A stretch of 64,000 nt of DNA from Desulfatiglandales bacterium (lineage in GTDB: Bacteria > Desulfobacterota > DSM-4660 > Desulfatiglandales > Desulfatiglandaceae), in contig OY759599.1 of assembly GCA_963662465.1 (NCBI GenBank), positions 640,001-704,000 on the forward strand. Direction: 5' to 3'. The notes under the pieces were generated by a model. It ran no database searches. It had not been told where the DNA came from and was given only the letters and a program-made list of their open reading frames with translations. A program made the translations under genes and the position numbers. This document shows, piece after piece, positions 1,282 through 15,718 of the stretch. Position 1 is the stretch's first letter. Each line of letters opens with the position of its first letter.

Positions 1282-1647
1282 ATGGAAGGATCACAAAGTT
1301 CCAAGCCCCTCTCCGGTCATCCTAATCGCGAGGTTCGGGTGATGGCGGGGAGGGAGATTCTCTTCGATAACGAGGGATTCCTGTGGAAAGCGAAAGACTG
1401 GACCGAGGAAGTGGCAAGGATCCTTGCCGCCGAGAGTGGGCTTGAAGAACTTAGCGAGATCCAATGGCGGGTCATAAATTTTTTGAGGGATTTTTACGCC
1501 TATAACGGCCGGGCGCCCATGAACCGGGATATCAAGGCGGAGATCGGTTTGAGCTTCATGGAGATGGAGGCCCTTTTTCCTGACGGCATCCGCAGAGGCG
1601 CCCGCCGCGTGGCAGGTTTGCCGAATCCCAAATCATGCTCGGGATAG
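1282..1647 (+). CDS. TusE/DsrC/DsvC-family sulfur relay protein (start may be 1342)
   Basis: D-x-EGFL...DW motif, W-x-VI-x-FLR-x-FY, C-terminal AGLPNPKSC with a single terminal Cys. Confidence 0.85.
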   Translation: MEGSQSSKPLSGHPNREVRVMAGREILFDNEGFLWKAKDWTEEVARILAAESGLEELSEIQWRVINFLRDFYAYNGRAPMNRDIKAEIGLSFMEMEALFPDGIRRGARRVAGLPNPKSCSG

Positions 1648-1652
1648 AGCCT

Positions 1653-2814
1653 ATGACGGAACATTTCATATACCTTGATAACGCGGCCACTACTTTTCCA
1701 AAACCGCAAGGCGCTCTGACCCGTATGGTGGAGACCTATGAGCGCATAGGGGTTTCCCCCGGACGCGGGAGCTATGACCTCGCTGTTGAGGCGGCGGATC
1801 TGGTTTTCGCGACGAGGAGACGGCTCGCGCGGCTATTCGGGGCGCCGGACCCTGATCGCGTCATATTCACGGGGAACGCCACGGATGCTTTGAACCTTTG
1901 CATTCAGGGCTTGATAGGGCAGGGCGATCATGTGGTTTCCACCCGGATCGAGCACAACTCGGTTCTTCGACCCCTGTATCACCTTCGGCATCAAGGCTTG
2001 ATAACATACGATCTGGCGCCCTTCGACGGCAGGGGCTTTGTTGACCCAAACGATATTGCCAAGGCCATAAAACCCCATACGAAGCTGGTGATCGTGTGCC
2101 ATGCCTCCAACGTGCTGGGAACCATCCAGCCCATAGCCGAAATCGGTCTGCTTTGCGCGGAAAAGGGGGTGCCCCTGCTGGTGGATGCGGCGTAGAGCGC
2201 GGGGGTGATCCCCATTGACATGGACGCCTGGAAGATTGCAGCCGTTGCCTTTACCGGCCACAAGTCTTTACTGGGTCCAACCGGCATCGGGGGGCCTGGT
2301 CATCCACCCTGACCTGGACCTTCGAACCACCCGCTTCGGCGGTACCGGCATCGATTCTGAAAACCCGATTCATACTCAGCGCTACCCCCATCGCCTGGAG
2401 GCCGGAACCATCAACCTCATGGGGATTATCGGGCTTTCGGAAGGTCTCCGCTTTCTGGAGAAGAAGGGCATTGAATCGATCCACCGGGAGGAGATGAGAT
2501 TGCTCACCAGACTCCGCGACGGGCTGGCGGCATTGGAGGGGGTGGAATGTTACTGTGTTGAAGATTTGTCAGATCATGTGGGCCTCATGACCATGAATAT
2601 CAGGGGCATGGATCCGGGGGATGCGGGCGCCATCCTGGACGCCGATTTCGGGATCGCCGTACGTGTGGGGCTTCATTGCGCACCGCTGGCTCATGAGGGC
2701 ATCGGGACTTTTCCCCGGGGCGGCGTCCGTTTTAGCCTGGGGCCTTTTAACACGATGGATGATGTGGATCGGGCGGTGGAAGCCGTTACCCGGATGGGTC
2801 GTGCGCGGTTATGA
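1653..2814 (+). pseudogene. Cysteine desulfurase family (class V aminotransferase), disrupted
   Basis: IYLDNAATT, EHNSV, HASNVLG, TGHKSLLGPTG, RVGLHCAP, VRFSLG motifs. In-frame TAG at 2193-2195 replaces the CAG of DAAQ (CAG is kept in the second copy), and there is a +1 G in the G6 run at 2289-2294. Confidence 0.88.
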
Positions 2815-3177
2815 ATTAAGTTCAAATACAACCCTTAAAGACTGGTTAATTTCCTGTACGTTGTCTATTGACAATCTTCCCCGAATTTTAACCAGCCTAT
2901 GACGATGATCTATTGGACGTGTCTGCAAACAGTCTGCTACGGATTTTTTAGATAGGCCATTATCGGATGACGGATAAATTTTAACATTGGTTTTTATTCG
3001 CGCTTTTTTTGCACTCCATTCAGTAATTGGAACAACCTGGATAACAGGAACTCTTTCATTATAAATATCGTTAGTCACAACCACACATGGTCTAATTTTT
3101 CCAGTTTCTGAACCTTTTGTCGGATCAAGATTGACGTCAATAACCATACCTCTTTTCAGCACTATCATTTCGGCCAT
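2809..3177 (-). CDS. mazF: PemK/MazF-family toxin
   Basis: KRGMVIDVNLDPTKGSETGKIRPCVVVTND ... VVPIT ... ADCLQTRPID. Confidence 0.9.
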   Translation of the reverse strand: MAEMIVLKRGMVIDVNLDPTKGSETGKIRPCVVVTNDIYNERVPVIQVVPITEWSAKKARIKTNVKIYPSSDNGLSKKSVADCLQTRPIDHRHRLVKIRGRLSIDNVQEINQSLRVVFELNS

Positions 3178-3398
3178 CCGTTTAATGCAGTTTCGGTCAA
3201 TTCTTTTAAATCATCATCTTCAGAATAAATTTCAGAATATAGCTCAGCGGATTTTCTTAGACTTTCAAGTTCCATTTCTTTCTTGAAATGCTCTATAGCC
3301 TCACGAAGCATAGCGCTTTTATCCTTAAATCCATAAACTGTAAAATTATTCAAAAACTGGGCTTGCGTTTCTTCAACGCTGAATTTTGCCTGTAACAT
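3165..3398 (-). CDS. Putative antitoxin (RHH-like) paired with MazF toxin
   Basis: Small acidic protein overlapping the toxin start; KSAMLREAI helix motif. Confidence 0.7.
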   Translation of the reverse strand: MLQAKFSVEETQAQFLNNFTVYGFKDKSAMLREAIEHFKKEMELESLRKSAELYSEIYSEDDDLKELTETALNGWPK

Positions 3399-3444
3399 AC
3401 GGCCTCCTTTTAAGTGCTTATATTGGGCCTTTATTTATAGGCCT

Positions 3445-3473
3445 ACAATAGGGTCCAATGCACTGAAAGTCAA
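3445..3473 (-). promoter_or_regulatory. sigma70-type promoter of the TA cassette
   Basis: Minus strand TTGACT-17 nt-TATTGT, overlapped by imperfect GGCC/GGACC palindromes (possible operator). Confidence 0.6.
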
Positions 3474-3499
3474 TGAAACTGTTTGAGCAGACGGGAAAA

Positions 3500-3561
3500 G
3501 GCGAACGCTTCGGCTCACCGGACCCGCGCTGTTTGCGGGGGTCCGGGGGGAGCCGGTGGTT
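3500..3561 (-). repeat. attC site interrupted by a group II intron
   Basis: GGCGAAC-GCTTC-GGCTCACCGGACCC...GGGTCCGGGGGGAGCCGGTG-GTT; joining 3561 to 4390 restores GTTATGC (inverse core GCATAAC on minus). Confidence 0.8.
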
Positions 3562-4389
3562 GTGTGCCGGGCACGGCACGTGTTCTTAAGGGTGCGTGTA
3601 ATGTATCATGCTTCCGATATGTTACGCAAGTCCCAGACCCAGCCAGGTAGTGGCGAAGGGTGTGCGGGGTATCACAACCAGGTACCCGGTAACGGGCTTG
3701 GAGAGGCAGTGGCCTTGCTACGGCAGGGTACCGCGAACGCACGGGGCGACGAACAGAAATCGAGTCAAGCGGGTCTGGTGGGACGAGTCCGCAACACAGG
3801 ACAAAGTCCTCTAACTACTATAGGCCAGGCACGTAGTCGGCGCTCGTGTGCGGAAAGACACGTGTTTACCCCGGGAGGCTCGTTGCGTCTCGCAGGGAAC
3901 TGCAACTGAAACATACCGGAATATAAGTGAAAACCGGTAAAACAAAACCCTGGCGCCAGGGATATTTCGCGTCATGGCCCTGACGAGCCCGACCAACTGG
4001 TCGGGAAACACAAACAAATGGACTCGACAGATTGCAGAAACTACGAGTGAGTAAACTGCAAGGGGAGCCCACCGCGTAACGGGAGTCAGCAGAGGGCATA
4101 TTAAGCTGGAGAAACGAGTCCTGAATAAAGGGAGGCCTCACTCCGGTGAAGGCCCGAACGGTGCCACCTGCCGAATGGCAGGGGTAAATGGTTGTGGTTG
4201 TCAAAGAACGTGTACTTATTGGTCTAATGCAGCGGTAGCTGAAAGGTCGATAACGTCGCATTCTGGAAAACCCAGTAGGGCGGAACCTGTTTTATCCGTG
4301 CCTGCGCTGACCAGTCGAATCGCCGTATACGGACCCGTATGTACGGTGGTGTGGGAGGGGGGAGCTGTGAGGCTCCTCCCTATCCCTAT
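3562..4389 (+). ncRNA. ORF-less group II intron, class C attC-targeting type
   Basis: 5' GTGTG; domain I closing helix (CCGGGCACGGCACGTGTTC / GACACGTGTTTACCCCGG); AGTCAGCAGAGGGCATA...GAAGGCCCGAAC domain III; short domain V GAATCGCCGTATACGGACCCGTATGTACGGTGGTGTGGGAGG with CGC triad; domain VI ending CCCTAT; no RT ORF. Confidence 0.9.
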
Positions 4390-5221
4390 ATGCACACGTT
4401 TCACCGAACTTTTCTTTCAACCAGGCACACATTACCTGAAAGAAATCATCTTTTGCATATTTCTCTTTTGAAGGCGAATGCCCGCATTTTTCAAATTTAT
4501 GATATTCCAGTTGAGGTACATACCGTTTCAGTTCATCCCTTATCATTTCTCCCGGATGCGGATCATATGTGCCGTGCAGCATGAGTACCGGGGACCTGAT
4601 AACTGTAAAAGACTGAGGATATACCCTCTCTTCCTGGCAGCGGATCATGTCGTTCCATGTCTCTGTGTGCGCTTTCATATCAAACAATTCCGTTCCCGAA
4701 TTCCCGATGATGTCAGTCACACAATCGTAATTGTCTGTCATTTCATGCCACTTCATGATCTGTTCCTGAAAAGACAGATGCAGATCAGAACTGTGCTCCG
4801 GGTGCTTTTTTATGTAATCGAAAATTCTGCGCTTCCGTGTTCTTATCGCCTCCTCACGGGAACTTCTGTCAAAAGTTCCGCAACCGATAAGTACAAGAGG
4901 CCCGACTGTCTCAGGATACTCCGCGGCATAAGCCAATGCGAGCATTGCCCCCCATGAGTCACCGACAAGCGCGGGAACCTGATCGCCGCATCGGGCAGAT
5001 ATTAACTGATGGAGATCGGAAATATGAACAGCAACAGATAACGGCATGTCACCGCTGACACGCTGCCAGGGTTCAAATACTCTGAAATTGTCAGCCAGAC
5101 CTTCGGCTACCGGTGCGGCACTTCCCGATGCACCGGGGCCACCGTGCAGGACTATTACAGGAGATCCTTTTTCTCCGTAAATGCCGATACGTTTATTTTC
5201 CTTCCATCCCAACTTATCCAT
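4292..5221 (-). CDS. Alpha/beta hydrolase (proline iminopeptidase-like) gene cassette; natural stop split by the intron, so the ORF reads about 34 codons into the intron antisense
   Basis: LHGGPG and GDSWG nucleophile motifs; without the intron the gene ends ...GETCA-TAA inside the inverse core GCATAAC. Confidence 0.85.
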   Translation of the reverse strand: MDKLGWKENKRIGIYGEKGSPVIVLHGGPGASGSAAPVAEGLADNFRVFEPWQRVSGDMPLSVAVHISDLHQLISARCGDQVPALVGDSWGAMLALAYAAEYPETVGPLVLIGCGTFDRSSREEAIRTRKRRIFDYIKKHPEHSSDLHLSFQEQIMKWHEMTDNYDCVTDIIGNSGTELFDMKAHTETWNDMIRCQEERVYPQSFTVIRSPVLMLHGTYDPHPGEMIRDELKRYVPQLEYHKFEKCGHSPSKEKYAKDDFFQVMCAWLKEKFGETCAYRDREEPHSSPLPHHRTYGSVYGDSTGQRRHG

Positions 5222-5227
5222 AATCTT

Positions 5228-5320
5228 ACATAATCATATTCAGTGTGCACCGATTTCAGCTGCGTTGCCCGGAGCGAGGAACGAGCGACGGGTAACGACA
5301 GGTGGAAACATTCGTTGGGC
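5228..5320 (-). repeat. Degenerate attC site
   Basis: Minus: GCCCAAC-GAATG-TTTCCACCTGTCGTTACCCG...CGGGCAACGCAGCTGAAA; core degenerate (ATTATGT at 5228-5234). Confidence 0.65.
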
Positions 5321-5328
5321 TAAATTAG

Positions 5329-6294
5329 CTATAGATCGTCCACCCAATGAATTATATCCTCAAAAACAGACTCAGCTATAGAATCAGTATTCTTAGTTAA
5401 AAACCTATGTGTTGTATTTGGATATTTTTTGAATGAAATCATTTTAGCATTTGATGCTAGATTTTCCCAGTTTAAGACATTTTGTTGCAAGGTCTTTTGG
5501 GGATAGTTTTCATCTGCCAATCCTTGTAAAACCAGTGTTGGCTTGTTTAGCTCAGATAATATTTTATTAACGTTTTCAGTGTCTTCAATCCATTCTCGCC
5601 AGTAAATCTCACCACCACCCCATATCTGACCACCTTTTGGAAATTTCTTTTCTTTTAGAAGAACAAACGCTTTTTTTGTAGCTTCAATGTAAGGGCTATT
5701 CTGTGCCTTAAGCTGCTCGATAAATAAATCATCAATAGGGATTGAAGGGGACGCCATTATGATAACACCCGCAATATTGGGCAATTGGCTTGCTGCTACA
5801 GGCGCAATTGAGCCGCCTTCGCTATGTCCTAAAATGAATATCTTGTTTTTATCTATTTCGTTTCTGCTCTGGAGATATTTCACGGATGATACAATGTCAT
5901 TTATTTGATCACCTTGAGTAATTTCAAGCGGATTTAATGAGTTATGTGTTATGTATCGTTTGTCGTAGCGAAATGTAGCAATATGGTGAGATGATAAATA
6001 ATCCGCCCACCATTTATAAAACGGCAATTGATTATTTGTCTGAATAGTTGTTACTTTGCCGTCTCTGTCAATTGGACCTGATCCGCATACCATTACTACT
6101 CCTGGAACATTGTTTTTGTTTTGCGGTAAAAACAAAGTTCCTTCTAATTTCAATTTGTCGCTTTTTAAGTGTATCTGTTCGACTCTGTATTTTGATGAAC
6201 TAGGTATCGAATCAGACGCAAAAACTGGTGATCCATTTAAGATAAAACAGTAACCAAATGTAATAACTAATAATTTAACAACTTGGATTTTCAT
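5329..6294 (-). CDS. Secreted alpha/beta hydrolase (S33/S9-like) gene cassette
   Basis: Signal-peptide-like N-terminus, GSGPIDRDG, RYDKR, GHSEGG, QG-x-AD motifs; AT-rich. Confidence 0.85.
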   Translation of the reverse strand: MKIQVVKLLVITFGYCFILNGSPVFASDSIPSSSKYRVEQIHLKSDKLKLEGTLFLPQNKNNVPGVVMVCGSGPIDRDGKVTTIQTNNQLPFYKWWADYLSSHHIATFRYDKRYITHNSLNPLEITQGDQINDIVSSVKYLQSRNEIDKNKIFILGHSEGGSIAPVAASQLPNIAGVIIMASPSIPIDDLFIEQLKAQNSPYIEATKKAFVLLKEKKFPKGGQIWGGGEIYWREWIEDTENVNKILSELNKPTLVLQGLADENYPQKTLQQNVLNWENLASNAKMISFKKYPNTTHRFLTKNTDSIAESVFEDIIHWVDDL

Positions 6295-6330
6295 ATTATT
6301 TCCTAAATTTCTCAAAATTTTATCGTGCCC

Positions 6331-6384
6331 AATCGCGGTGTCCGGTCAAGCACCGCGATTCCCGGCGGCGAAGCCGCCGGGAAC
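6331..6384. repeat. 54-bp double-hairpin element, copy 1
   Basis: AATCGCGGTG-TCCGGTCAAG-CACCGCGATT plus CCCGGCGGC-GAA-GCCGCCGGG-AAC; 52/54 identical to 11807-11860. Confidence 0.9.
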
Positions 6385-6427
6385 ATGAACATCACCGGTA
6401 AAATCCGGTGTATGTTCGTTGTTTGAC
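6378..6427 (-). repeat. Short attC-like site
   Basis: AAC-ATGAACA-TCACCGG-TAAAAT-CCGGTG-TA-TGTTCGTT-GTT; starts 6 bp after the stop of 6433..7263. Confidence 0.6.
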
Positions 6428-6432
6428 ATTTT

Positions 6433-7263
6433 TCAAAGATACACCTCGGGTTCTTTCCTTTCATGACATGCCATTTGTAGCTGTTGAATTGCTCCGTTAA
6501 AATGGGGATCTGTCATTTGTTTGGCCTCTGACGGACAATTTTTAACACAGGCAAAACAAATCATGCACTGCCATTTGTCTATTTTGGAAACATCTTCCGG
6601 ATCAATCGCATTGGTGGGGCAAACTTCCACGCACAGGTTGCACTGGGTACACTTGCCTGCATCTGTTTCAGGCGTAAAGGATAATGTGTTACGAACCTCC
6701 TTGATCATATGTAGGTTTTTAGGTTCTATATATGGGATATTTCCTGGAATACTTATTTTTTCAATATCCTCAAGAGAATTTATAGCTTTTAGTTTCTCCT
6801 TAATTTTAAAACCAAAAGCTTTTGCCTTTTCAATATCATTTAAATCAGGCCTGCCATGTGCAATTGGCCGGGATGGAAGAGAGTATGAGTGCTCAGCAAT
6901 AAATGCTCCGCCTGCAACTGGGATGAACCCTTGTGCAACTGAAATATCATGAAGCTCTAAGAGTGCATCCTCATATTTTCGATTTCCATAAACCACGGCA
7001 AGCACCACTGGAGTATTCTGGGCACGTAATGCATTTAAAAAAGGGACCACCTCTTCGGGAACACGTCCATAATAAACAGGAGTACCGAGAATGACCATAT
7101 CCTTATTATTAAACGCAAAAGATTTACCCTTACGCTGAGACCGGTTGGTGCAGTCCATAATCTCAATTTGTTCTGCCTGCATGCCCTGTGCAATTTTCTC
7201 TATGATTGTCCTGGTTGTTCCTGTTGGCGAAAAAGATACACATGAAACTGTTTTTATTTCCAT
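6433..7263 (-). CDS. Flavodoxin-fold + 2x[4Fe-4S] ferredoxin (EFR1-like) protein
   Basis: FSPTGTT, PVYYGRVP, VYGNR, CxxCxxCxxxCP twice; GTTAAGG core-like site at 7274-7280 just upstream. Confidence 0.85.
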   Translation of the reverse strand: MEIKTVSCVSFSPTGTTRTIIEKIAQGMQAEQIEIMDCTNRSQRKGKSFAFNNKDMVILGTPVYYGRVPEEVVPFLNALRAQNTPVVLAVVYGNRKYEDALLELHDISVAQGFIPVAGGAFIAEHSYSLPSRPIAHGRPDLNDIEKAKAFGFKIKEKLKAINSLEDIEKISIPGNIPYIEPKNLHMIKEVRNTLSFTPETDAGKCTQCNLCVEVCPTNAIDPEDVSKIDKWQCMICFACVKNCPSEAKQMTDPHFNGAIQQLQMACHERKEPEVYL

Positions 7264-7339
7264 TTATTACCTTCCTTAACGCTTTTCTTGAAGCGCTTGA
7301 TACTCATGATCACGAACTGCTCTTATAAAAATAAGTTAA

Positions 7340-7700
7340 ACCGAGGATTCGAAACGCCTTTTTCCTTCAATCACAACCAGAAGGAATATGAAATCCGCAT
7401 GATCATCCTCTTTGATCAGGGTTTGGCTTCCAGAAAGCGGCATGCACTTAATAACCGGGTCGAGAAGACCCGCCAGGCATTCGCAGATTTAGATGCCAGG
7501 CTGAATGCTTATCGGCTCAAAAGCAAAGAAGCCATCGAGAAAGCCTGCGACGCTGTTCTGCGAAAATATCAAACAGCTGACTTTTTCAGCTATATCATCT
7601 CAAATGAACCCATCGTCACCTACAAAAACAAAAAAAGGGGCTGCCCTGCAAAAGGTGAAAAGCAGGAACAGATCGATATTGTGAAGGATTTCTTTTATCT
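7340..7700 (+). pseudogene. IS1634-like (IS4 superfamily) transposase internal fragment
   Basis: Helical segment and KKRG(C)P motif resemble the IS1634 transposase mid-region; no ends seen. Confidence 0.55.
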
Positions 7701-7852
7701 CTTGAGGGATCATATTTCAAGCATAGCATTATCCGTTCAATTTGTTCTCCAAAAATTGAATCTTTTTTCATTCCCCATGCCTTTTTAATTTTTTGCTGAA
7801 ACTACCAGGGAATTTGAATAGGATACTGTAAAAGAATAAAGAGTAGTCCCCT

Positions 7853-8704
7853 TTATTCGTCATTTAGTACCGCACCACAAAACTTGCAGTGGCGGGCATC
7901 GGCATCGTGACCTTCAGCGCTGCACTCCGGGCAGGCCTGGGTGGACACTTTGCGACCGAATGCCTGCGACATTTCCACGGTCACAATACCAGTCGGCACG
8001 GCGATGATGGCGTAGCCGAGAATCATCACCAGTGATGCCAGTGTCTGGCCAAAGACGGTTTGGGGAGAAATGTCGCCATATCCGACCGTGGTCAGGGTAA
8101 CGATTGCCCAGTAGATACTGCGCGGAATGCTTGTAAAGCCATTGACCCCGCCCTCTATGACATACATCAGCGAGCCGAAGATGACCACCAGGGTCAGTAC
8201 CGTGTAGATAAAGACGGCAATCTTGCGGCCACTCGCGCGCAGCGCCTTCATGAGGAGTCGTGCCTCCCCGAGATAGGGGACCAGCTTCAGGATACGGAAG
8301 ATGCGCAGGATGCGCAGAATGCGGATGACCAGCAGGTACTGGCTTCCCGGCAGGAACAGGCTAAAGTAGGTAGGGATGATCGCCAGCAAATCGACCACCC
8401 CATAAAAACTGACGGCATATTTGAGCGGCCGGCCGACACACATAAGTCGCAAAAGGTATTCGGCAGTGAAGATGATTGTAAAGAACCACTCGATCCCATA
8501 GAGTAGGCTGCCGTAATGTGATTGCACGGCACCGATACTGTCAAGCATCACCGCCACAACGCTCGCCAGGATGCTGACGATGAGCAATACGTCGAATCCT
8601 TTCCCCACCGGGGTGTCGGCCTCGAAGATCACCTCGTGCAAAACTTTCCGCCAGTGAGCCCTCGGCGGCGCTACCTCGCGGCGTGCATCCTTTAGCCATT
8701 TCAT
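7853..8704 (-). CDS. Voltage-gated-type potassium channel (ion transporter)
   Basis: S4 RILRILRIFRILK, selectivity filter TTVGYGD, C-terminal CxxC...CxxC. Confidence 0.92.
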   Translation of the reverse strand: MKWLKDARREVAPPRAHWRKVLHEVIFEADTPVGKGFDVLLIVSILASVVAVMLDSIGAVQSHYGSLLYGIEWFFTIIFTAEYLLRLMCVGRPLKYAVSFYGVVDLLAIIPTYFSLFLPGSQYLLVIRILRILRIFRILKLVPYLGEARLLMKALRASGRKIAVFIYTVLTLVVIFGSLMYVIEGGVNGFTSIPRSIYWAIVTLTTVGYGDISPQTVFGQTLASLVMILGYAIIAVPTGIVTVEMSQAFGRKVSTQACPECSAEGHDADARHCKFCGAVLNDE

Positions 8705-9080
8705 GGTTTTACTCCTGTCAGTGTTGGGTGGAATCAGGGCATCCGTCGGCGTGTCAGGAATTCATAAAGAGGCATAAATCAGAATCTGTACCTGTGATTA
8801 TTGTATACATTTAAATGCTTCCTCCATGCTTGCTTTTTCATCGAATACCATTGCTCAGGCTACCATTTTTATTCGAATGTTCAATAGATTTTAGGAATTT
8901 TGATTTATAGGGGGGGGCAGGCCATGCGAAACTGAATTATTGCCGCCTAATTTGCTTAAGAATCGATGTGTCAGTGAGAGTCGTGATCGATTAGGTTGTG
9001 GGCTTCGTTCTTTACTATCACGGTTGGCATAATTTATCCTCCCTTTCGTAGATGCTACTGACGCCCCTCACATGAAAGAC

Positions 9081-9158
9081 AAGGTCACCAGCGTTTCCTC
9101 CGGCCCCCGCCAAGGACCTCCGAAGTATCAGGCGGTCTGGTGCAGCGTTTGGTTCGCT
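9081..9158 (-). repeat. Degenerate attC site after hicB
   Basis: GGTCTGGTGCAGCGTTTGGTTCGC end and a GGTCACCAGCG partner arm; other core missing. Confidence 0.5.
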
Positions 9159-9176
9159 ATCCTGCCGTTGTGAAAG

Positions 9177-9392
9177 CTATGCAAACGCCAGCCTACGACC
9201 TTTGGGTTCAGGGATTTGGTCACCACACTCTTCGACTGTTGTGATCCAAAGTTCCATTGCTTCTTTTATGTTCGCTAATGCAGATTCATAGGTGTTACCA
9301 TGACCCATGCAACCTGGAAGCTCAGGAACATCAGCGATGAAAGCCTGATCTTCATCGCTCCAAAATATTGTAATTTGATATTTACTCATCAT
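9177..9392 (-). CDS. hicB: HicB-family antitoxin
   Basis: FWSDEDQAFIADVPELPGCMGHG...IPEPKGR. Confidence 0.9.
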   Translation of the reverse strand: MMSKYQITIFWSDEDQAFIADVPELPGCMGHGNTYESALANIKEAMELWITTVEECGDQIPEPKGRRLAFA

Positions 9393-9642
9393 CTTTTAGC
9401 CCCAATTGGTATTTCAAGATTAAACTCCGCACCTGTTTAACCTGATATGGTTTTGCCTTATTTCCTTCCTTTTGAAGATTCGGTCTTTCTTCAATTCCTT
9501 TTTTCCAAAAAATATGATGACTCCGTTTGATACGCATTTCAAATTCAAATTCTTGTAGAAGGTGAACTAAATCCGAAAAAGCTATATTGGCATCACTCAT
9601 ACCTCTTAAAATTTGGAAAATCAGTTTATCATACTTGCCCAT
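9382..9642 (-). CDS. hicA: HicA-family toxin (usual GSH motif reads RSH)
   Basis: RIKRSHHIF...KAKPYQVKQVR; core GTTAGGA at 9651-9657 just upstream of ATG. Confidence 0.85.
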   Translation of the reverse strand: MGKYDKLIFQILRGMSDANIAFSDLVHLLQEFEFEMRIKRSHHIFWKKGIEERPNLQKEGNKAKPYQVKQVRSLILKYQLGLKDDE

Positions 9643-9815
9643 TTTAAAATTCCTAACTCAAAATGATGTACGTGTATGGAAACCAGCCACGGGCTTCAGG
9701 AAATCGCCTATTCAAGTGAACCAGTGTCCTATTCTTTTTGCTGCACGAAAATAATGCTTTTTCGTGGGACCTTCTCATACTCATAAATAGGGGGAAAGGT
9801 CGACCATGGCAATTC

Positions 9816-9981
9816 CTAATGCAGCAGTAGCTGAAAGGTCGATAACGTCGCATTCTGGGAAACCCGGTAGGGCGGAACCTGTTTTATCCGTGCCTGCTCT
9901 GACTAGCCGAATCGCCGTATACGGACCCGTATGTACGGTGGTGTGGGAGGGGGGAGCTGTGAGGCTCCTCCCTATCCCTAT
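9816..9981 (+). ncRNA. 5'-truncated copy (domains IV-VI) of the same ORF-less group II intron
   Basis: 166 nt colinear with 4224-4389 with a few substitutions; 3' junction CCCTAT|ATGT again at an inverse-core-like position. Confidence 0.9.
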
Positions 9982-10211
9982 ATGTAAGTATTCTCTAAAA
10001 TAGGTTTAATGTTTTTAGCCTTCTTGTTGTCTTTCGGACACACCGGGAAGCAGTTGCCGATGCTACCCGCTCATGTGAAATTAAACAAATAGAACCAAAG
10101 AAGAAAAATGGAGCGGTTGCCTAAAATTATAAGGTGGATGTGGTGATTACCATAAAATCTCTGTGCCCGATCCAGAATACCGGCCAGATTTTTCCAAATA
10201 TATTTGGGCGA

Positions 10212-10841
10212 TCAGGCTAAATATGATTTCATTTCAACCATTTGGGTGTCTCCGTTCAGATATTCCATTATAAAATCAGGTGGCGGGGATCCCACGCCGA
10301 AAAGAGCCACCGCAGCCTTGGGATTATTTTCATACAATTTTGTAAATTCCATATGCTTCTCAGCCGCTTTGTAAAGTGAATAGGAAGAAGATGACTTGGT
10401 ATAGTGCTGTTGGAAATCCGGACGATCGTTCAATGCTTGTTCAAGCTCATTTCGATTGCTTTCCGGGAGGTCTGCGCTGACCCTGACTTTACCTTCGGCA
10501 TCCGTACTGATACTTATTTTTGTATTGGACGGGATTCCCAGCTCTTTAAGTGTTTCATCTAAGACCTGATCCGCCTTTTCCCGGTATTTTTCTCCGAAGG
10601 CAAGAATTTCCTCCACTGTAATCACCCCGTCTTTACCGGCACCATCCATGAACCCGTCAGTTATCTGGGAAAGGCTCAGGTTCCCGGTTGTTACATTGTT
10701 CAGTTTATCTTCAGGAGAAATTGTTATCTTGTCAGATCCCGGACGGGGAAGAGAAAATTTTGCCGGAGAAAGAGAACTTTTTGCCTGAGTGGCCTGACGA
10801 GAATAAATCGGTGAGTTTGATCCGAATGGATTGATATTCAT
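10212..10841 (-). CDS. Hypothetical protein
   Basis: 209-aa ORF with AAAGGA RBS; DKITIS N-terminal motif; no family recognised. Confidence 0.65.
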   Translation of the reverse strand: MNINPFGSNSPIYSRQATQAKSSLSPAKFSLPRPGSDKITISPEDKLNNVTTGNLSLSQITDGFMDGAGKDGVITVEEILAFGEKYREKADQVLDETLKELGIPSNTKISISTDAEGKVRVSADLPESNRNELEQALNDRPDFQQHYTKSSSSYSLYKAAEKHMEFTKLYENNPKAAVALFGVGSPPPDFIMEYLNGDTQMVEMKSYLA

Positions 10842-11110
10842 GACATTTCCTTTTGTTTGATGTTAGAGAGTTGGCATTCCTGTCAATATGGTAAAGCAAA
10901 ATATATGCCTAATTTTGATATTAGCCATCGCGAAGGCTTCTCCGCATATTATAACGATTTCAGAAAGATCGAAAAAAGTAGGCAGGAAATCCAAATGATT
11001 AAAGCCATCGAAAAAGCTATTGCTGACTCAAAATTCATGTGACGATCCTTTAAGCTTTTTGATCAGGACCGGCATCGGCGCGGTTTCGTTTTTCTCTATG
11101 ATTATGGGTG

Positions 11111-11386
11111 CTACGCAACTTCTATGCGCAGGCTTTTACCAAGGGCTTGAGCAAATTTTTCCAATGTTGAAAGCTTGATATCTTCAGCATGATTTTCAAT
11201 ACGTGAGATGGCAGTTTTTTTCGTATTGAGTTTTTTTGCAAGTTGTTCTTGCGTCAAACCGGCGTCTTCCCTCGCAATTTTGAGCATTACACCAATTTTA
11301 AATTCTCCATAACCGGATTCGTAATCTTTGGCGAATGCTGGATCACTGGATTTGCGTTTGGCAACATATGATTTTAGTGTTTTCAT
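11111..11386 (-). CDS. higA: HigA-like XRE HTH antitoxin
   Basis: AREDAGLTQEQLAKKLNTKKTAISRIEN. Confidence 0.85.
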   Translation of the reverse strand: MKTLKSYVAKRKSSDPAFAKDYESGYGEFKIGVMLKIAREDAGLTQEQLAKKLNTKKTAISRIENHAEDIKLSTLEKFAQALGKSLRIEVA

Positions 11387-11387
11387 G

Positions 11388-11738
11388 CTATTTCCTCCTC
11401 TCAAAATAATCCTTCTTTCTGGCTTCTGCGATCTTGATAGCTTGTGGAGGAGTTTTCTGAGTTTTCTTTTGGAATGCGTGATTGAGGACTATGAGATTGG
11501 GGCCGTCGAAGAAGCCGAGTAAGCGGAATGTGTTGTTTCCCACAACTACTCTTACCTCCCAAATGCCATCGGTATTGACAAGCTTTTTCAAATAGCTCGA
11601 TGGTATGGTCGGCAATTCTTCTATTAACCGCAAGACCCATGTCGTTTTCTGTGCTTGCTTCGGAGACAGCGATTCTAAAAACTCCTCGACAGGACAATTG
11701 CCTGATGCCGTTTCATAAAATATTATCTCTCGTGTCAT
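11388..11738 (-). CDS. higB: HigB/RelE-family (Gp49-like) toxin
   Basis: FYETASGNCPVEEFL...GIWEVRV...HAFQKKTQKTP; toxin-first order; GTTAAC palindromes upstream. Confidence 0.85.
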   Translation of the reverse strand: MTREIIFYETASGNCPVEEFLESLSPKQAQKTTWVLRLIEELPTIPSSYLKKLVNTDGIWEVRVVVGNNTFRLLGFFDGPNLIVLNHAFQKKTQKTPPQAIKIAEARKKDYFERRK

Positions 11739-11806
11739 ATGTGGATACATGTTAACGTGTGCGTTAACTTTGTCAAGGAGAATTGCATGTCGGGTTTTTT
11801 GAAGTG

Positions 11807-11860
11807 AATCGCGGTGTCCGGTCAAGCTCCGCGATTTCCGGCGGCGAAGCCGCCGGGAAC
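11807..11860. repeat. 54-bp double-hairpin element, copy 2
   Basis: 52/54 identical to 6331-6384; followed by an attC-like half arm AAC-GGCTG-GGGTAACCAG. Confidence 0.9.
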
Positions 11861-11898
11861 GGCTGGGGTAACCAGCCAGTCCCGTGCTAATCTGCGCA

Positions 11899-12027
11899 AC
11901 ATAACGTTCGTCAGATTATAAGTTACTCAAAGGCTTTCGGTTCTTTCCCTTCAATTGAGCACTCTTCTATACTTCTCTTTACGAGTTTCGAGTGACATAT
12001 AAACTTATAATCTGAAGTACGTCCCCC
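11899..12027 (-). repeat. Long attC-like site (degenerate)
   Basis: ACATAAC-5 nt-TCAGATTATAAGTT ... AACTTATAATCTGA-5 nt-GTC (GTT mutated). Confidence 0.55.
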
Positions 12028-12033
12028 AACTCA

Positions 12034-12161
12034 CGAAGGCAAGAATTTCCTCCACTGTAATCACCCCGTCTTTAGCGGCACCATCCATGAACCCGTCAGT
12101 TATCTGGGAAAGGCTCAGGTTCCCGGTTGTTACATTGTTCAGTTTATCTTTAGGAGAAATT
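12034..12161. repeat. 128-bp duplicate of 10595-10722 (interior of 10212..10841)
   Basis: Direct comparison: 2 mismatches in 128 nt. Confidence 0.92.
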
Positions 12162-12239
12162 TAGTATTGTCTCCGGAATTCCCCCAGCCGGCGGCTTGCA
12201 AGGCAGGATCGATATGTTCAGCGCGGGTTTCGGCTTCGT

Positions 12240-12683
12240 TCATGTGTCTGTTCCGGCAATTGCGGTATAAATTTTCAGCAACAACGATTCATCGTCTTCT
12301 GTGCCACAAAGAACGGCCTTTATCCATTCACCGAGTAATTCTTTTGATATATTTCCAGCGGCAACGTGGTAGCTGATGTTTTCCGATTTGTGGATAAATG
12401 ATTGGACGCTTCGCAAATAACCGTTTAGCAAGAGCATCTGGGCGCAAAGGGTGATGGCGATGCGCTTATTGCCGTCCTCAAAGCAGTGGAACTTGCAGGC
12501 ACAGAAAAACAAATGGGTGAGTTTGGTATCAAATGTTGGATAATAGTCGTCATTTTGGATATTCTGGAGCACGGAATCTAGTTTGCCGAGTTCAAGATGG
12601 CCGAATGCACCGCCGCCACTGATATCTACGGTCTTTCGATGGATCTCTATCGCCTGCTCCAAGGTTAGATACGCCCAGGCCAT
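12240..12683 (-). CDS. Fic/Doc-family (death-on-curing-type) toxin
   Basis: HCFEDGNKR motif (Doc-type NKR). Confidence 0.88.
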   Translation of the reverse strand: MAWAYLTLEQAIEIHRKTVDISGGGAFGHLELGKLDSVLQNIQNDDYYPTFDTKLTHLFFCACKFHCFEDGNKRIAITLCAQMLLLNGYLRSVQSFIHKSENISYHVAAGNISKELLGEWIKAVLCGTEDDESLLLKIYTAIAGTDT

Positions 12684-12685
12684 TA

Positions 12686-13708
12686 TTAACGTTCCTTCAG
12701 ACGTTTCATCACATCCTTGGCTTCCTCCAGACGATCAGCCAATTCCTTGCTCTTTTCTCCGAGGAAGCGCTCAAATTCATCCCGCTGCAAAGGGGTGACA
12801 TATTCCTGCAGCTGGAGGTGCAAGGCATCCCGGAAAGCCAGATCACGGCTGGCCATTTTGTTGCGGGCCTTTTCTACCAGCGGTTTCCAGTGCGCCTGCT
12901 TTTCAAAGTTTGAAAACAACGCGTCCACCTCCCAGGACGTCAGTTTGCGTCCCTTTTCCATGCAAACGCTTGACAGTACATCGGCAAAGCCACACTCATA
13001 GGCTGCAATCAGGTCGAGCACTTCCGAATAAAAGGTGTTGCGGATATTAGCGCGGTTTTCCAAACGCAGCACCCGCCGATATTCCTTCGCTTTCTCGCGG
13101 AAAATGCTGACATAGATTTTATCCGTGTAGATTGCGTATTTGAAATTGCCCATGTCCACGCAATTTTTCATCGCATCGGTGAACTGTTTACGGAAATTTT
13201 CCTCGATAAAGGCCGACTGGATGAAATCTTCGTCGCGCTGGTTGATGTATTTGGTGCCGCCGCCTGTACGCTGGTTGATAGTGTCGATAACGATGTCTAA
13301 AATTGCCTTGCGCAACAAGGCGGCCCGCTCGGATTCTCGCATTAGCATCGCGAGGTTTAGAAACGCTCGGAAGTCAAATACCCCCAATTGAGGAGCTTTC
13401 GAGATGTTCCCGAAATCTGTTTCGGGAACATCCAATCCCTGAATCGCTAATTTCAAAGCTTTCAATCGTTTACCTTTCAACACCTCATACCCGTTCCGGA
13501 CCAATTCATCTGCGTTTTGTTCCAGATAGTTTTCCACAGTGCGCAGCGTTACCTCGAAAAACGACGCCACCTGTTCCTTGAGCACCACCGTCTTGCTCTC
13601 GAACGGAATGCCTTGGATGCCTGCCGCCTTCTCAATTTCTGCAAGAGCATATGGGTTATTGAGAATGTTTTGGCGATCCACCTCCGAATTTGTAAGGTCT
13701 TTGCTCAT
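12686..13708 (-). CDS. Putative DNA-binding protein coupled to the Doc gene
   Basis: 340 aa; HTH-like QVASFFEVTLRTVENYL; 2 bp from the doc start. Confidence 0.65.
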   Translation of the reverse strand: MSKDLTNSEVDRQNILNNPYALAEIEKAAGIQGIPFESKTVVLKEQVASFFEVTLRTVENYLEQNADELVRNGYEVLKGKRLKALKLAIQGLDVPETDFGNISKAPQLGVFDFRAFLNLAMLMRESERAALLRKAILDIVIDTINQRTGGGTKYINQRDEDFIQSAFIEENFRKQFTDAMKNCVDMGNFKYAIYTDKIYVSIFREKAKEYRRVLRLENRANIRNTFYSEVLDLIAAYECGFADVLSSVCMEKGRKLTSWEVDALFSNFEKQAHWKPLVEKARNKMASRDLAFRDALHLQLQEYVTPLQRDEFERFLGEKSKELADRLEEAKDVMKRLKER

Positions 13709-13887
13709 GAGTGTGTTCCCATCTATAGTTGTCCGCTGGGGGAATTCCGTGAAATGGAGGGGGCTTTTCTACTTTTTTCTTCCCCTGCCGTTTCTTCTCG
13801 TGTTGTTCGATTTCCATGAACCTGATGAAAAAGAAACTTTTCCCGCATCCCACGTTATCTGTCTTTGTCCACGATATCCGAAGTGCG

Positions 13888-13949
13888 TGCCAACGTTGCT
13901 TTTCAGCGGGCGCGGCCTTTTGCGCTCCGCTGCAAAAGCCTTGTTGGGC
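13888..13949 (-). repeat. attC site (62 bp)
   Basis: TGCCAAC-GTTGCTTTTCAGCGGGCGC...GCGCTCCGCTGCAAAAGCCTT-GTTGGGC. Confidence 0.92.
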
Positions 13950-13970
13950 GCTGATTCATGAAGCATCAGT

Positions 13971-14819
13971 TCATTTCTTTGTTCTCGTAAAGTATGAGCC
14001 ATCTGCCCAGTCTTTCCATTTATCGACTATTGGACCAAAGATTACGAGGTTATGATAGTGACGTCCAGCATTACCGTGAACCCCAGGGATGTATAAACCG
14101 TCCCATCCATTCTTTCTGAAATAGGAGGATAGTATTTGGCTTACGTGATACCTGGATCTACTACGAGCTTGCAACTCTTCCTCGAAGCGATAACCTGAAG
14201 AGGTCCTTCCAGATTCTGCCATGTCAAAAGCCAATGCGAGGCTATTATGGATGTTCTTATTGGAAGGAGACAAATCAGCTATTTTCAGAGTATCTATTGG
14301 CATATTGAATTTCTGGACCAGGATCGATGAAGAATTTAGTTCGTTATATAGGAAATCTATTGTGTCGATTAAGTAGATGCACTTTTCCCCGACGGTGTTA
14401 TATCGTCCATCGCTCGGCTTGGGAGAGGGGCCAATTTGATTAGACCATAAATGCTTTAGTACTGAAATATCTACAGTCCTGTAGAATGCCGTGGTTGTTA
14501 AATATAAGCGGTTATTAAAATTATTTACCAAAGCCTCAATATAGAGTCCAAAATCTTTTCCGTCATGCTCAACATAGTCGACAATCAGCTTTTGGATCTT
14601 GACGGTATCTGTCTCATTTCGGCTATCAGCGTGAATGGTAGATCTGTTAGTCTTTCCGCTTGTAGATTGAATAACAAAGTCATCTCTCATTTCCAGTGTG
14701 TCCTTTACGACTACATGGATTGATCTTCCCGTCCTTCCACAGTTTGGACAAGGTTGATTATCTTCTGGGTCAAGAAGGGTGTCGCAATGACGACATTTTG
14801 TATAATCATCAGAACTCAT
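13971..14819 (-). CDS. RES-domain protein with N-terminal zinc ribbon (gene cassette)
   Basis: CxxC...CPxC N-terminus; FYR, GRYN...IYL...E, DGLYIP, NLVIF RES-like motifs. Confidence 0.75.
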   Translation of the reverse strand: MSSDDYTKCRHCDTLLDPEDNQPCPNCGRTGRSIHVVVKDTLEMRDDFVIQSTSGKTNRSTIHADSRNETDTVKIQKLIVDYVEHDGKDFGLYIEALVNNFNNRLYLTTTAFYRTVDISVLKHLWSNQIGPSPKPSDGRYNTVGEKCIYLIDTIDFLYNELNSSSILVQKFNMPIDTLKIADLSPSNKNIHNSLALAFDMAESGRTSSGYRFEEELQARSRSRYHVSQILSSYFRKNGWDGLYIPGVHGNAGRHYHNLVIFGPIVDKWKDWADGSYFTRTKK

Positions 14820-14846
14820 GTTCACTGGCCTTTCAATACTGCTTCT

Positions 14847-14908
14847 GCCCAACGCCGCTTTTCAGCGGGCGCGGCTTTTTGCGATCCGCTGCAAAAGCAT
14901 GGTTAGGT
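14847..14908 (-). repeat. attC site (62 bp)
   Basis: GCCCAAC-GCCGCTTTTCAGCGGGCGC...GCGATCCGCTGCAAAAGCATG-GTTAGGT; close relative of 13888-13949. Confidence 0.92.
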
Positions 14909-14924
14909 CTTCGGCACAACATGA

Positions 14925-15602
14925 TCAGTCACCCCGTAGGCGAAGGAACCTGCTCAACTTGCTTGGCTCGATATCTGTCCTGCACTCCAACTCACGTATT
15001 ATCGCAAGCACAGAATTGACGGCCCAGGTTGCGCAGTCTGCGCTCATACACTTCATGCTCACGAAGTCTGCACCGTCATCTACAAAGCGGCTCGTAGTAA
15101 AACGGCCGTCTAAAATATCCACTAAGGCGACAGTCCTTTCGCGCTGTGGATCCCACGTGGGCTTGTAATGAACTAATGCGTTTCTCAGCTCTATCAGCGC
15201 CCATGCATCTCGGTAAGGTGCATTATCCTTATCCAGAGGCTCTGCGCCCAACATTTCCAACGCTATTTGATACTTTTTAAGGATCGGCTTCCACTCGATG
15301 CCTCCTTTACCCCAGAACTCTTTGTCGAAGTCCTTCAGCTGAGCCCGTAGCGGGCTATGATGCGCTATGAATAACTCGTTTATCAAAGCCTCTAATGATG
15401 CAGCGGAAGACATAAGACAGGCACTAGCATATGATCTGATATCCTCGAAAAATGGCCCGAACTCTGCACAATCGTGCTTAGCTTCCAGCCGCGCCACTTC
15501 GCTCTCGAAGGTTGTTGCCGCTTTCAGGTGCTGCAACGCGAAATTTGCTATGACCTGCTCTGTTGCTTCTACTTTCAAGAAGACACCCTCTTCCACATCC
15601 AT
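14925..15602 (-). CDS. Hypothetical cassette protein with HEPN-like Rx4H motif
   Basis: LEALINE helix and LIELRNALVH motif; all-helical appearance. Confidence 0.6.
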   Translation of the reverse strand: MDVEEGVFLKVEATEQVIANFALQHLKAATTFESEVARLEAKHDCAEFGPFFEDIRSYASACLMSSAASLEALINELFIAHHSPLRAQLKDFDKEFWGKGGIEWKPILKKYQIALEMLGAEPLDKDNAPYRDAWALIELRNALVHYKPTWDPQRERTVALVDILDGRFTTSRFVDDGADFVSMKCMSADCATWAVNSVLAIIRELECRTDIEPSKLSRFLRLRGD

Positions 15603-15621
15603 TACCCGCTTCCCTCCTCAG

Positions 15622-15715
15622 ACCTAACGCTGCAAATCACCGGCAGCCAAAAGCTGCAGAGCGAGGTACGAGCGGCGCAGCTTTTGGCTGTCCGAGTGCA
15701 TTTGCCTTGTCATGT
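15622..15715 (-). repeat. attC site (94 bp), inverse core mutated
   Basis: ACCTAAC-GCTGCAAATCACCGGCAGCCAAAAGCTGC...GCAGCTTTTGGCTGTCCGAGTGCATTTGCCTT-GTCATGT. Confidence 0.88.
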
Positions 15716-15718
15716 GCT

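What the first reader, a model, noticed from the sequence alone, without database searches (positions are those of the whole stretch)
6331..6384. Repeated ~51-bp double-hairpin 'empty micro-cassette' located at attC crossover points
Seen: the same 54 nt (52/54) occur at 6331-6384 and 11807-11860. On the minus strand both read [attC arm]G|TTCCCGGCGGCTTCGCCGCCGGGAATCGCGGTGCTTGACCGGACACCGCGA|TT[next cassette]. In copy 1 the next bases are TTGGGC, exactly the start predicted for the hydrolase cassette whose inverse core is GCCCAAC (5314-5320), so the element lies between the G and TT of the integron crossover. It also obeys the cassette rule: its start TTCCCG is complementary to an internal CGGGAAT, followed by a perfect hairpin closed by AAT/ATT instead of AAC/GTT. 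Inference: this is a gene-less minimal cassette with a non-canonical mini-attC, either an integrase parasite or a mobile terminator/insulator that tunes downstream cassette expression. I know of no description of this element.
Basis: partly seen in the sequence, partly recalled or inferred. Interest (0 to 1): 0.85.

Follow-up and report, generated by a model that had tools for sequence, protein, structure and literature searches.

The report
Tiny gene-less integron cassette, 51 bases
The repeated 51-base double hairpin is a shrunken copy of a widespread, protein-free mobile cassette made only of folding DNA, which sits exactly at integron cassette junctions and is absent from the same junction in a related strain.

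Summary
The 51-mer lies at 6333-6383 and, with 2 mismatches, at 11809-11859, both on the minus strand. These are the only copies in the 8.16-Mb genome.

It is an internally deleted member of a roughly 157-nt family. The layout is G|TT, a GC hairpin, AA-T, a Y-shaped three-helix domain, then A|TT. A covariance model finds the family in 38 of 105 genomes of the same bacterial family. A pattern scan finds at least 122 public stretches, mostly Desulfobacterota but also Methylomicrobium.

In 80 of those loci:
- The preceding base is G in 74 of 79.
- The last base is A in 58 of 59.
- TT follows in 56 of 59.

Covariation supports the fold: 42 of 63 pairs show changes on both sides. Wobble bias, GNA-type loops and folding energy (63 of 64) all favour the strand opposite the cassette genes, as for attC sites.

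Contigs of a related organism carry the same two cassettes joined with exactly these 51 bases missing, with a 2-base TT ambiguity.

Best reading: a cargo-less cassette moved by integron integrase, probably selfish. It is not a terminator. I found no public description. Three earlier notes of this scan describe the same family.

The parts
6333..6383 (-). Copy 1 of the 51-nt cargo-less mini-cassette. Hairpin 1 is 6383-6359 (11 bp, 3-nt loop). Hairpin 2 is 6358-6333 (8-10 bp, 10-nt loop), closed by AAT/ATT.
   Evidence: Exact pattern match; fold -24.8 kcal/mol, z -6.9; covariance-model hit at 6331-6384; exactly these 51 nt are missing in contigs of runs X3/X4.
6384..6427 (-). Short attC-type hairpin of the upstream flavodoxin/4Fe-4S cassette. 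It runs from GTCAAAC (6427-6421) to the crossover G at 6384.
   Evidence: The fold pairs AAC with GTT across the junction. Similar 42-48-nt hairpins precede family members elsewhere, for example L119, L133 and L164. In X3/X4 this G is joined directly to TTGGGC.
6327..6332 (-). TTGGGC, the first bases of the downstream alpha/beta-hydrolase cassette.
   Evidence: Read. Complementary to GCCCAAC at 5320-5314.
5314..5320 (-). GCCCAAC, the inverse core (R'') of the hydrolase cassette's own attC.
   Evidence: it stands 8 nt after the stop codon of the gene at 5329-6315.
11809..11859 (-). Copy 2 of the mini-cassette, with 2 mismatches that each break a pair. It is flanked by G (11860) and TT (11808-11807), then a gp49-like/HTH toxin-antitoxin cassette.
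   Evidence: covariance-model hit at 11807-11860.

Best explanation
The 51-mer is a cargo-less integron cassette: a recombination site with nothing else attached.

Read along the cassette strand (the window's minus strand), it starts with TT just after the G of the preceding attC and ends with A just before the TT of the next cassette. Its first six bases, TTCCCG, pair with the internal CGGGAA. Once cut out and closed, the single strand would therefore fold into a fully paired dumbbell. A 13-nt GC mini-hairpin takes the place of a gene, and a stem closed by AAT/ATT takes the place of the usual AAC/GTT attC stem.

The full-length ancestor is about 157 nt, and there the second hairpin is a 13-bp stem carrying two further hairpins (a Y shape). 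The window copies lost the two inner arms by deletions between short repeats. The shortened form still moved, because the same deletion form sits at two different junctions.

Shown:
- the position at cassette junctions;
- the family and its conserved fold;
- the bias towards folding of the strand opposite the genes;
- a precise presence/absence difference at this very junction.

Inferred:
- that an integron integrase encoded elsewhere in the genome moves it as folded single-stranded DNA;
- that it persists mainly as a selfish passenger.
For: 1. Setting. The window region of about 2800-18200 is a cassette array without its own integrase. Clear attCs obey the cassette rule, for example R' GTTAGGTC followed by R'' GACCTAAC in the next attC. 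The genome encodes at least 5 integron integrases over the TIGR02249 cut-off elsewhere.

2. Precise empty site. In runs X3 and X4 (one sample, one study) contigs of 2668 and 2684 nt cover 5200-6330 and then 6382-7043. They skip 51 nt with 2 ambiguous letters, and carry 29 and 37 other-letter differences over about 1.8 kb. The contig of X1 holds the element with 0 differences.

3. Family size. BLAST finds it in 25 of 105 genomes. The covariance model finds it in 38 of 105 genomes and 21 of 45 genera.

4. Ends, in 80 loci:
- preceding base G in 74 of 79 (A in 3, T in 2);
- last base A in 58 of 59;
- TT next in 56 of 59;
- lengths 49-67 nt (11 loci), 85-108 nt (4 loci), 144-162 nt (44 loci).

5. 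Upstream context. Of 77 sites, 32 are strict attC-like hairpins, 14 are attI-type sites and 31 are unclassified. Of 224 random GTT sites in the same loci, 3 are attC-like and 0 are attI-type.

6. Variable occupancy of one attI-type site. Of 29 copies of the same roughly 55-nt site, 4 are followed by the element, 1 by a part of it, and 24 by other sequence, 16 of which start with TT.

7. First slot beside an integrase gene. The element takes that position at G019:C37, G019:C53, G038:C3, G014:C130, G055:C240, G020:C29, G020:C89 and G107.

8. Fold. 94.2% of cells are paired against 82.9% in shuffles and 28-40% in slid controls. 42 of 63 pairs show changes on both sides.

9. Strand.
- A.C/C.A cells number 117 against 43 G.T/T.G cells. 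At the six most variable pairs the count is 80 against 2.
- The loop of hairpin 1 reads C|TNC|G in 62 of 64, which is GNA on the other strand.
- The other strand folds better in 63 of 64, by a median of 8.95 kcal/mol.

10. Integrase co-occurrence. 30 of 38 genomes with the element have an integron integrase (E <= 1e-60), against 29 of 67 without it.

11. Mobility of the short form. Both window copies share the same unusual deletion form but have different flanks on both sides.
Against: - No recombination was observed or assayed, so the role of the integrase is inferred.
- The site departs from textbook attC. It uses AAT/ATT instead of AAC/GTT in 58 of 59. The 20 bp next to the crossover form a perfect stem with no conserved bulged bases or unpaired spacer. 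Characterised integrases use such bulges for recognition (recalled knowledge).
- 31 of 77 upstream contexts were not classified as attC or attI by my strict test.
- The sequence upstream of window copy 2 is not a clean attC.
- 8 of 38 element-bearing genomes show no integrase, though most of these are fragmented assemblies.
- The empty-site allele comes from one sample only. It is read from contigs, not raw reads, and the run type is not on record.
- Sequences in the alignments are related, so shuffle counts and the Wilcoxon p-value overstate significance.
- The frequent first position after attI could also mean a function rather than mere mobility.
Confidence: 0.78

Rival explanations
1. It is a functional regulatory cassette acting as RNA. 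Candidate roles are a structured 5' leader, insulator, terminator or promoter that tunes expression of downstream cassettes, as shown for gene-less cassettes of Vibrio.
For: Gene-less cassettes of Vibrionaceae mostly carry promoters (PMC11014356, passages read). The element often occupies the first slot after attI-type sites: 14 of 77 contexts, plus 8 integrase-adjacent cases. There it would form the start of any array transcript. The fold is conserved across sub-families.
Against: No T-run follows either hairpin, and the terminator scan calls nothing at the element. The only promoter-like hit touching it scores 9 of 12, and hits are at chance frequency (14 found, 14.9 expected). The TTGAC-like stretch covaries with its pairing partner rather than being conserved. 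Wobble bias, GNA-type loops and energy all favour the antisense strand, which does not fit a sense-strand leader. Many copies have lost the Y domain.
Confidence: 0.12
2. It is a REP- or MITE-like palindromic element moved by a transposase that targets hairpins, so attC sites are merely favoured landing places.
For: It is small, palindromic, multi-copy and often shortened. The same array holds other hairpin-seeking parasites: group II intron pieces and a true MITE.
Against: Insertion is always at the same G|TT phase, including attI-type sites that are not hairpins. The ends are a circular permutation of a paired box, which is the cassette rule. There are no terminal inverted repeats and no target duplication beyond the shared TT. 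There are only 2 copies in 8.16 Mb. The MITE in the same window has about 10 copies at unrelated sites.
Confidence: 0.05
3. It is not a separate unit but an extension of the neighbouring attC, either a composite site or a duplicated site arm.
For: It abuts attC hairpins directly and is itself hairpin-rich.
Against: The same unit follows unrelated attCs and attI-type sites. The upstream attC of copy 1 exists without it in X3/X4.
Confidence: 0.02

Closest known systems
Gene-less (ORF-less) integron cassettes of Vibrio superintegrons and Treponema/oral integrons (PMC11014356, passages read; PMC6557892, search listing only)
   Same: Cassettes without a protein gene that sit in arrays between attC sites and are presumably moved by the integron integrase.
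   Different: Those cassettes pair a non-coding body with an ordinary attC, and most act as promoters. This element has essentially no body (13 nt), is 49-162 nt in all, belongs to one conserved family found across phyla, uses AAT/ATT, and shows no conserved promoter.
attC sites with complex structure, such as the DUF1874 motif proposed as an unusual multi-stem attC (PMC5737381, passage read) and the OTH-22-1 motif (PMC8632094, passage read)
   Same: A structured single-stranded-DNA-type motif with more than a simple hairpin, found at cassette junctions.
   Different: DUF1874 and OTH-22-1 stand after genes as their attC, and OTH-22-1 keeps RYYYAAC. This element is a free-standing unit placed after another attC. 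Rfam 15 gave no match to any family at the element.
Group IIC-attC introns (PMC3001079, search listing and abstract start only)
   Same: Selfish elements that colonise integron attC sites. Pieces of such introns lie in this same array on the opposite strand.
   Different: Introns are ribozymes of 0.7-2 kb that insert by reverse splicing in the opposite orientation. This element has no intron domains and sits in cassette orientation at the integrase crossover.
MITEs and REP elements
   Same: Short, palindromic, protein-free repeats that depend on an enzyme encoded elsewhere. The way of life is the same: a non-autonomous parasite.
   Different: No terminal inverted repeats and no target duplication. 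The position is fixed at G|TT, and the ends are a circular permutation of a recombination box.

Membership tests
Integron gene cassette | Lies in a cassette array, directly after the crossover G of an attC or attI site and before the TT of the next cassette | tested here: met
   Window copies. G precedes in 74 of 79 and TT follows in 56 of 59. 46 of 77 upstream contexts are attC- or attI-like against 3 of 224 controls.
Integron gene cassette | Cassette rule: the first bases after TT are complementary to the cassette's own inverse core | tested here: met
   TTCCCG pairs with CGGGAA in the window. The pair columns covary across 64 sequences: AU 22, CG 19, UA 18 at one position. The rule holds in sub-families with other sequences.
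Integron gene cassette | Precise presence/absence as a unit at a junction | tested here: met
   Contigs of X3/X4 skip exactly 51 nt with a 2-nt ambiguity. The same attI-type site is followed by the element in 4 of 29 cases and by other cassette starts in 24.
Canonical attC site | Conserved AAC ... GTT triplets at the crossover | tested here: not met
   AAT/ATT: the last base is A in 58 of 59. The pair is U-A in 57 of 64 and C-G in 2 of 64.
Canonical attC site | Unpaired central spacer and extrahelical bases between the R and L boxes | tested here: not met
   The roughly 20 bp next to the crossover are a continuous stem, 97.9% paired in helix 2, with no conserved bulge.
Canonical attC site | The bottom strand (opposite the genes) is the one that folds | tested here: met
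   A.C against G.T cells: 117 against 43, and 80 against 2 at the six most variable pairs. The bottom strand is more stable in 63 of 64. GNA-type loops occur on the bottom strand in 62 of 64.
Integron gene cassette | Recombined by an integron integrase | not testable with these tools
   Association only. 30 of 38 genomes with the element have an integrase against 29 of 67 without. There are eight integrase-adjacent copies.
Intrinsic (Rho-independent) terminator | GC-rich hairpin followed by a T/U run | tested here: not met
   No T-run follows either hairpin on either strand. The scan of 5000-13000 calls no terminator at the element.
MITE / IS remnant | Terminal inverted repeats, target-site duplication, dispersed insertion sites | tested here: not met
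   The ends are not inverted repeats of each other. Only the shared TT is ambiguous. There are 2 copies, both at junctions.
Any Rfam 15 RNA family | Match to a curated covariance model | tested here: not met
   Nothing at the element in the window. At eight full-length relatives only chance-level microRNA hits appeared.

The most novel reading that the evidence does not exclude
These elements may be a working part of many integrons rather than mere passengers. A self-closing single-stranded DNA dumbbell would be recognised by integron integrases in a second mode, as a perfect duplex with ATT and no bulged bases. It preferentially takes the slot next to attI. Its first hairpin ties up the crossover bases of the neighbouring site, so it could lock, prime or reset recombination and expression of the array. 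The 51-nt form would then define the smallest natural substrate of an integron integrase.
Probability: 0.22. Interest if true: 0.85.

Novelty: new variant of a known kind. Interest (0 to 1): 0.62.

Why it matters
Integron cassettes are normally thought of as a gene plus a recombination site.

- **Minimal substrate.** This family shows that the site alone, closed on itself by a 13-nt hairpin, can persist and spread across phyla. A 51-nt remnant still seems able to move. That gives a natural minimal substrate for asking what an integron integrase really needs.
- **Challenge to textbook requirements.** The family lacks the AAC/GTT triplet and the bulged bases, two features usually held to be required.
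- **Annotation.** These units split or pad cassette arrays and attC predictions in Desulfobacterota and some methanotrophs.
- **Array biology.** Integron arrays carry their own parasites. Here there are three kinds in one array: mini-cassettes, group II intron pieces and a MITE.

Tried and rejected
- **RNA evidence.** No RNA holder was listed for the stretch, so expression could not be examined.
- **Run X5.** It has no contig bridging copy 1, so nothing follows from it.
- **Flanking cassettes in relatives.** The hydrolase cassette start matched 0 of 104 other family genomes. The flavodoxin cassette end matched only weakly (65-72% identity) inside the gene in 5 genomes. No empty site could be found by that route.
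- **Rfam.** Gathering and E-value scans gave nothing at the element.
- **Terminator and promoter scans.** No terminator was called at the element. Promoter-like hits are at chance frequency.
- **First attC scoring attempts.** (any fold, 45-145 nt) was too coarse. (strict, at least 45 nt, with BLAST for attI) missed the short 42-48-nt attCs and most attI-type sites, calling only 4. Both were replaced by the test.
- **Are all ...ACTTG|TT sites beside an integrase?** No. No integrase lies within 1.5 kb in L035-L038 or on the same contigs in G038, G100, G003 and G079. It is adjacent in G019:C37, G020:C29, G055:C240 and G107.
- **Earlier-findings look-ups.** Searches by place and by the window sequence returned nothing.
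- **Mistyped reference.** One search failed on a mistyped reference and was corrected.

Full report
**1. Observation**

The 51-mer read on the minus strand matches exactly at 6333-6383 and with two mismatches at 11809-11859. None of 100 shuffles gave a match. BLAST over the 8.16-Mb genome and a covariance model find no other copy.

Copy 1 folds into two perfect hairpins (-24.8 kcal/mol, z -6.9). Each of the two differences in copy 2 breaks one pair. TTGGGC follows copy 1, and GCCCAAC stands at 5320-5314 just behind the hydrolase gene. The element begins TTCCCG, which pairs with the internal CGGGAA, and its second hairpin is closed by AAT/ATT. As a closed 51-nt single strand it would be a fully paired dumbbell of 19 bp with loops of 3 and 10 nt. 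This follows directly from the sequence.

**2. Setting**

Window region 2800-18200 is low in G+C. It is filled with minus-strand genes typical of cassette arrays: MazF, HicAB, gp49/HTH, Fic, hydrolases, a flavodoxin/4Fe-4S protein, an ion channel and an HNH nuclease.

Several intergenic hairpins are clear attCs that obey the cassette rule. For example, R' GTTAGGTC at about 15610 is matched by R'' GACCTAAC in the next attC. The window has no integrase. The genome has at least five integron integrases over the TIGR02249 cut-off elsewhere. The array is therefore an integrase-less cluster of attC sites.

Upstream of copy 1 lies a short AAC...GTT hairpin. Upstream of copy 2 lies a decayed cassette with a MITE about 40 nt away, so the 'attC arm' there is not clean.

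**3. The element is a shortened member of a large family**

BLAST with the element found matches in 25 of 105 genomes of the same bacterial family. Most of these run on into a longer unit. The full form is 156-162 nt and reads, in order:
- G|TT;
- hairpin 1;
- AA-T;
- a 13-bp stem (P1) carrying two further hairpins (P2, P3);
- A|TT.

A covariance model built from 11 full-length copies found the family in 38 of 105 genomes and 21 of 45 genera. It also found sub-families with quite different sequence but the same layout and the same AAT/ATT closure.

Most are Desulfobacterota. Others include Methylomicrobium sp. wino1 (two copies), Methylotuvimicrobium sp. KM1 and some MAGs labelled otherwise. 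Rfam 15 has no such family.

**4. Ends and contexts**

In the 80 loci returned by the scan:
- the base before the element is G in 74 of 79 (A in 3, T in 2; one locus truncated);
- the last base is A in 58 of 59 determinable ends (G in 1);
- TT follows in 56 of 59;
- lengths fall into 49-67 nt (11 loci), 85-108 nt (4 loci) and 144-162 nt (44 loci).

I then classified 77 upstream contexts objectively. The attC test required a single AAC...GTT hairpin of 36-130 nt, at least half paired, at -6 kcal/mol or better. The attI test used a weight matrix trained on attI-type sites that lack the element.

| Set | n | attC-like | attI-type | unclassified |
|---|---|---|---|---|
| Element upstream contexts | 77 | 32 | 14 | 31 |
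| Random GTT sites, same loci | 224 | 3 | 0 | 221 |

Several of the unclassified contexts look like attCs by eye but fail the strict test.

**5. The attI-type site**

This is a conserved site of about 55 nt ending ...ACTTG|TT. It occurs in 25 of 105 family genomes. Of 29 copies inspected, 4 are followed by the element, 1 by part of it, and 24 by other sequence. Sixteen of those 24 start with TT and look like ordinary cassette starts. The site lies beside an integron integrase gene in some genomes but not in others.

The element is the first unit next to an integrase gene at G019:C37, G019:C53, G038:C3, G014:C130, G055:C240, G020:C29, G020:C89 and in Methylomicrobium. Two pairs of these come from one genus and may be the same locus.

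**6. The empty site at this very junction**

Sequencing runs that hold the stretch were found and laid on 5200-7400. The contig of run X1 carries the element with no difference.

Runs X3 and X4 come from one sample of another organism in another study. Each has one contig (2668 and 2684 nt) that covers 5200-6330 and continues at 6382-7043. This is reported as 'skips 51' with 2 letters fitting either side. The two cassettes are otherwise about 98% identical to the window. The 2-letter ambiguity is the TT shared by both ends, as expected for exchange at G|TT and A|TT.

The same runs hold hairpin 1 in at least four other contexts, including the long form. The limits are that it rests on one sample and on contigs, not raw reads.

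**7. Fold, and which strand folds**

On 64 full-length copies, 94.2% of cells are paired. Shuffles give 82.9% (0 of 500 reach the observed value) and slid partners give 28-40%. 42 of 63 pairs show changes on both sides.

Three independent signs point to the strand opposite the cassette genes:
- **Wobble bias.** Non-Watson-Crick cells are A.C/C.A 117 times and G.T/T.G 43 times. At the six most variable pairs the count is 80 against 2, meaning the intermediates are wobble pairs on the other strand.
- **Loop type.** The loop of hairpin 1 reads C|TNC|G in 62 of 64, with all four N. That is C|GNA|G on the other strand. The same holds for the P3 tip in 41 of 64 and the P2 tip in 28 of 64. GNA triloops closed by C-G are known as very stable DNA mini-hairpins; I recall this and did not check it here.
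- **Energy.** With DNA parameters the other strand folds better in 63 of 64, with means of -70.2 and -60.9 kcal/mol.

The sequences are related, so these counts overstate independence. They all agree with the rule for attC sites, where the bottom strand is the substrate. They argue against a sense-strand RNA.

**8. How the 51-mer arose**

Short forms are many and differ in their deletion end points, but all keep hairpin 1 and the base of P1. One 108-nt copy (L130) lacks only P2, with the same joint as the window form. The window form then lost P3 between two CACCGCG repeats.

The two window copies share this rare form yet have different flanks on both sides. The short form was therefore moved as a unit after the deletions. 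This is an inference.

**9. Mechanism**

The most economical reading is that integron integrases encoded elsewhere in the genome excise and insert the unit as folded bottom-strand DNA.

A double-stranded circle of 51 bp, or even 157 bp, is hardly possible physically. A single-stranded dumbbell is possible, and hairpin 1 is what closes it. The crossover base is A rather than G and stays with the element.

The roughly 20-bp stem next to the crossover has no bulged bases or unpaired spacer, unlike textbook attC. Recognition may therefore differ from the known mode. None of this was tested biochemically.

Co-occurrence fits: 30 of 38 element-bearing genomes have an integron integrase against 29 of 67 others. 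Related genomes and incomplete MAGs weaken this count.

**10. Function**

Nothing points to a terminator. There is no T-run, and none is called. Nothing points to a conserved promoter either. The default reading is a selfish minimal cassette.

The frequent first position after attI may simply reflect frequent insertion there. It leaves room for a role in array dynamics, which I give as the novel case.

**11. What is known**

Gene-less cassettes are established, and in Vibrio most act as promoters (PMC11014356, passages read). Multi-stem candidate attCs have been proposed: the DUF1874 motif (PMC5737381, passage read) and the OTH-22-1 motif (PMC8632094, passage read).

Five full-text searches listed nothing describing this family. 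I saw only listings for the other papers and no supplements, so a mention somewhere cannot be excluded.

Three earlier notes of this scan (e1-2313974, e1-2605955, e1-2622464) describe the same family in other genomes with the same reading. I reached mine before seeing them, as stated.
- the empty-site allele;
- the strand evidence;
- the attI-slot census;
- the derivation of the 51-nt form.

**12. Verdict**

It is a new variant of a known kind (gene-less integron cassettes) and is of moderate to high interest to integron biology.

Noticed in passing
window 3597-4395 (+) and 9854-9990 (+): There are group II intron pieces on the strand opposite the cassettes. Rfam hits are D1-D4 at 3683-3865 and domain V/VI at 4318-4389, plus a second, nearly identical 3' end at 9910-9981. 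This orientation is the one reported for group IIC-attC introns. The hydrolase-like ORF at 4292-5221 reads into the intron sequence. In G096 (L099) a stretch like the window's 3560-3600 abuts the 3' part of a Y-element, so an intron or its target hairpin may have landed inside such an element.
   Followed up: partly
window about 11897-12036 (-): A MITE-like repeat of about 135 nt with roughly 25-nt terminal inverted repeats. About 10 copies lie at unrelated places in the genome. It sits about 40 nt upstream of copy 2.
   Followed up: partly
window 12034-12161 versus 10595-10722: A 128-nt stretch is duplicated at 98.4% identity. One copy lies inside the 209-aa ORF at 10212-10841. The other is a fragment cut off by the MITE, so it is a decayed paralogous cassette.
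   Followed up: no
window 1635-2814 (+): The class-V aminotransferase (NifS-like) gene bordering the array is broken. There is an in-frame TAG at 2193-2195, and the Pfam match continues in another frame from about 2215.
   Followed up: partly
G000:C1:2871529-2871584 and 978430-978482 (outside the window): The window's genome holds copies of the roughly 55-nt attI-type site followed by ordinary cassette-like starts. One of them lies about 350 nt downstream of a co-oriented 348-aa tyrosine recombinase that is only weakly like integron integrases. Whether that recombinase uses the site is open.
   Followed up: no
window 18288-20036 (-): The AcrB-family gene at the far edge of the array matches only profile positions 451-1020. 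It therefore lacks its N-terminal half.
   Followed up: no
window 7568-7593 (-): A small hairpin ending in G|TTTGAT lies about 310 nt upstream of the flavodoxin gene. TTTGAT matches the inverse core GTCAAAC of that cassette's attC at 6 of 7 positions. This may mark the start of the cassette.
   Followed up: partly
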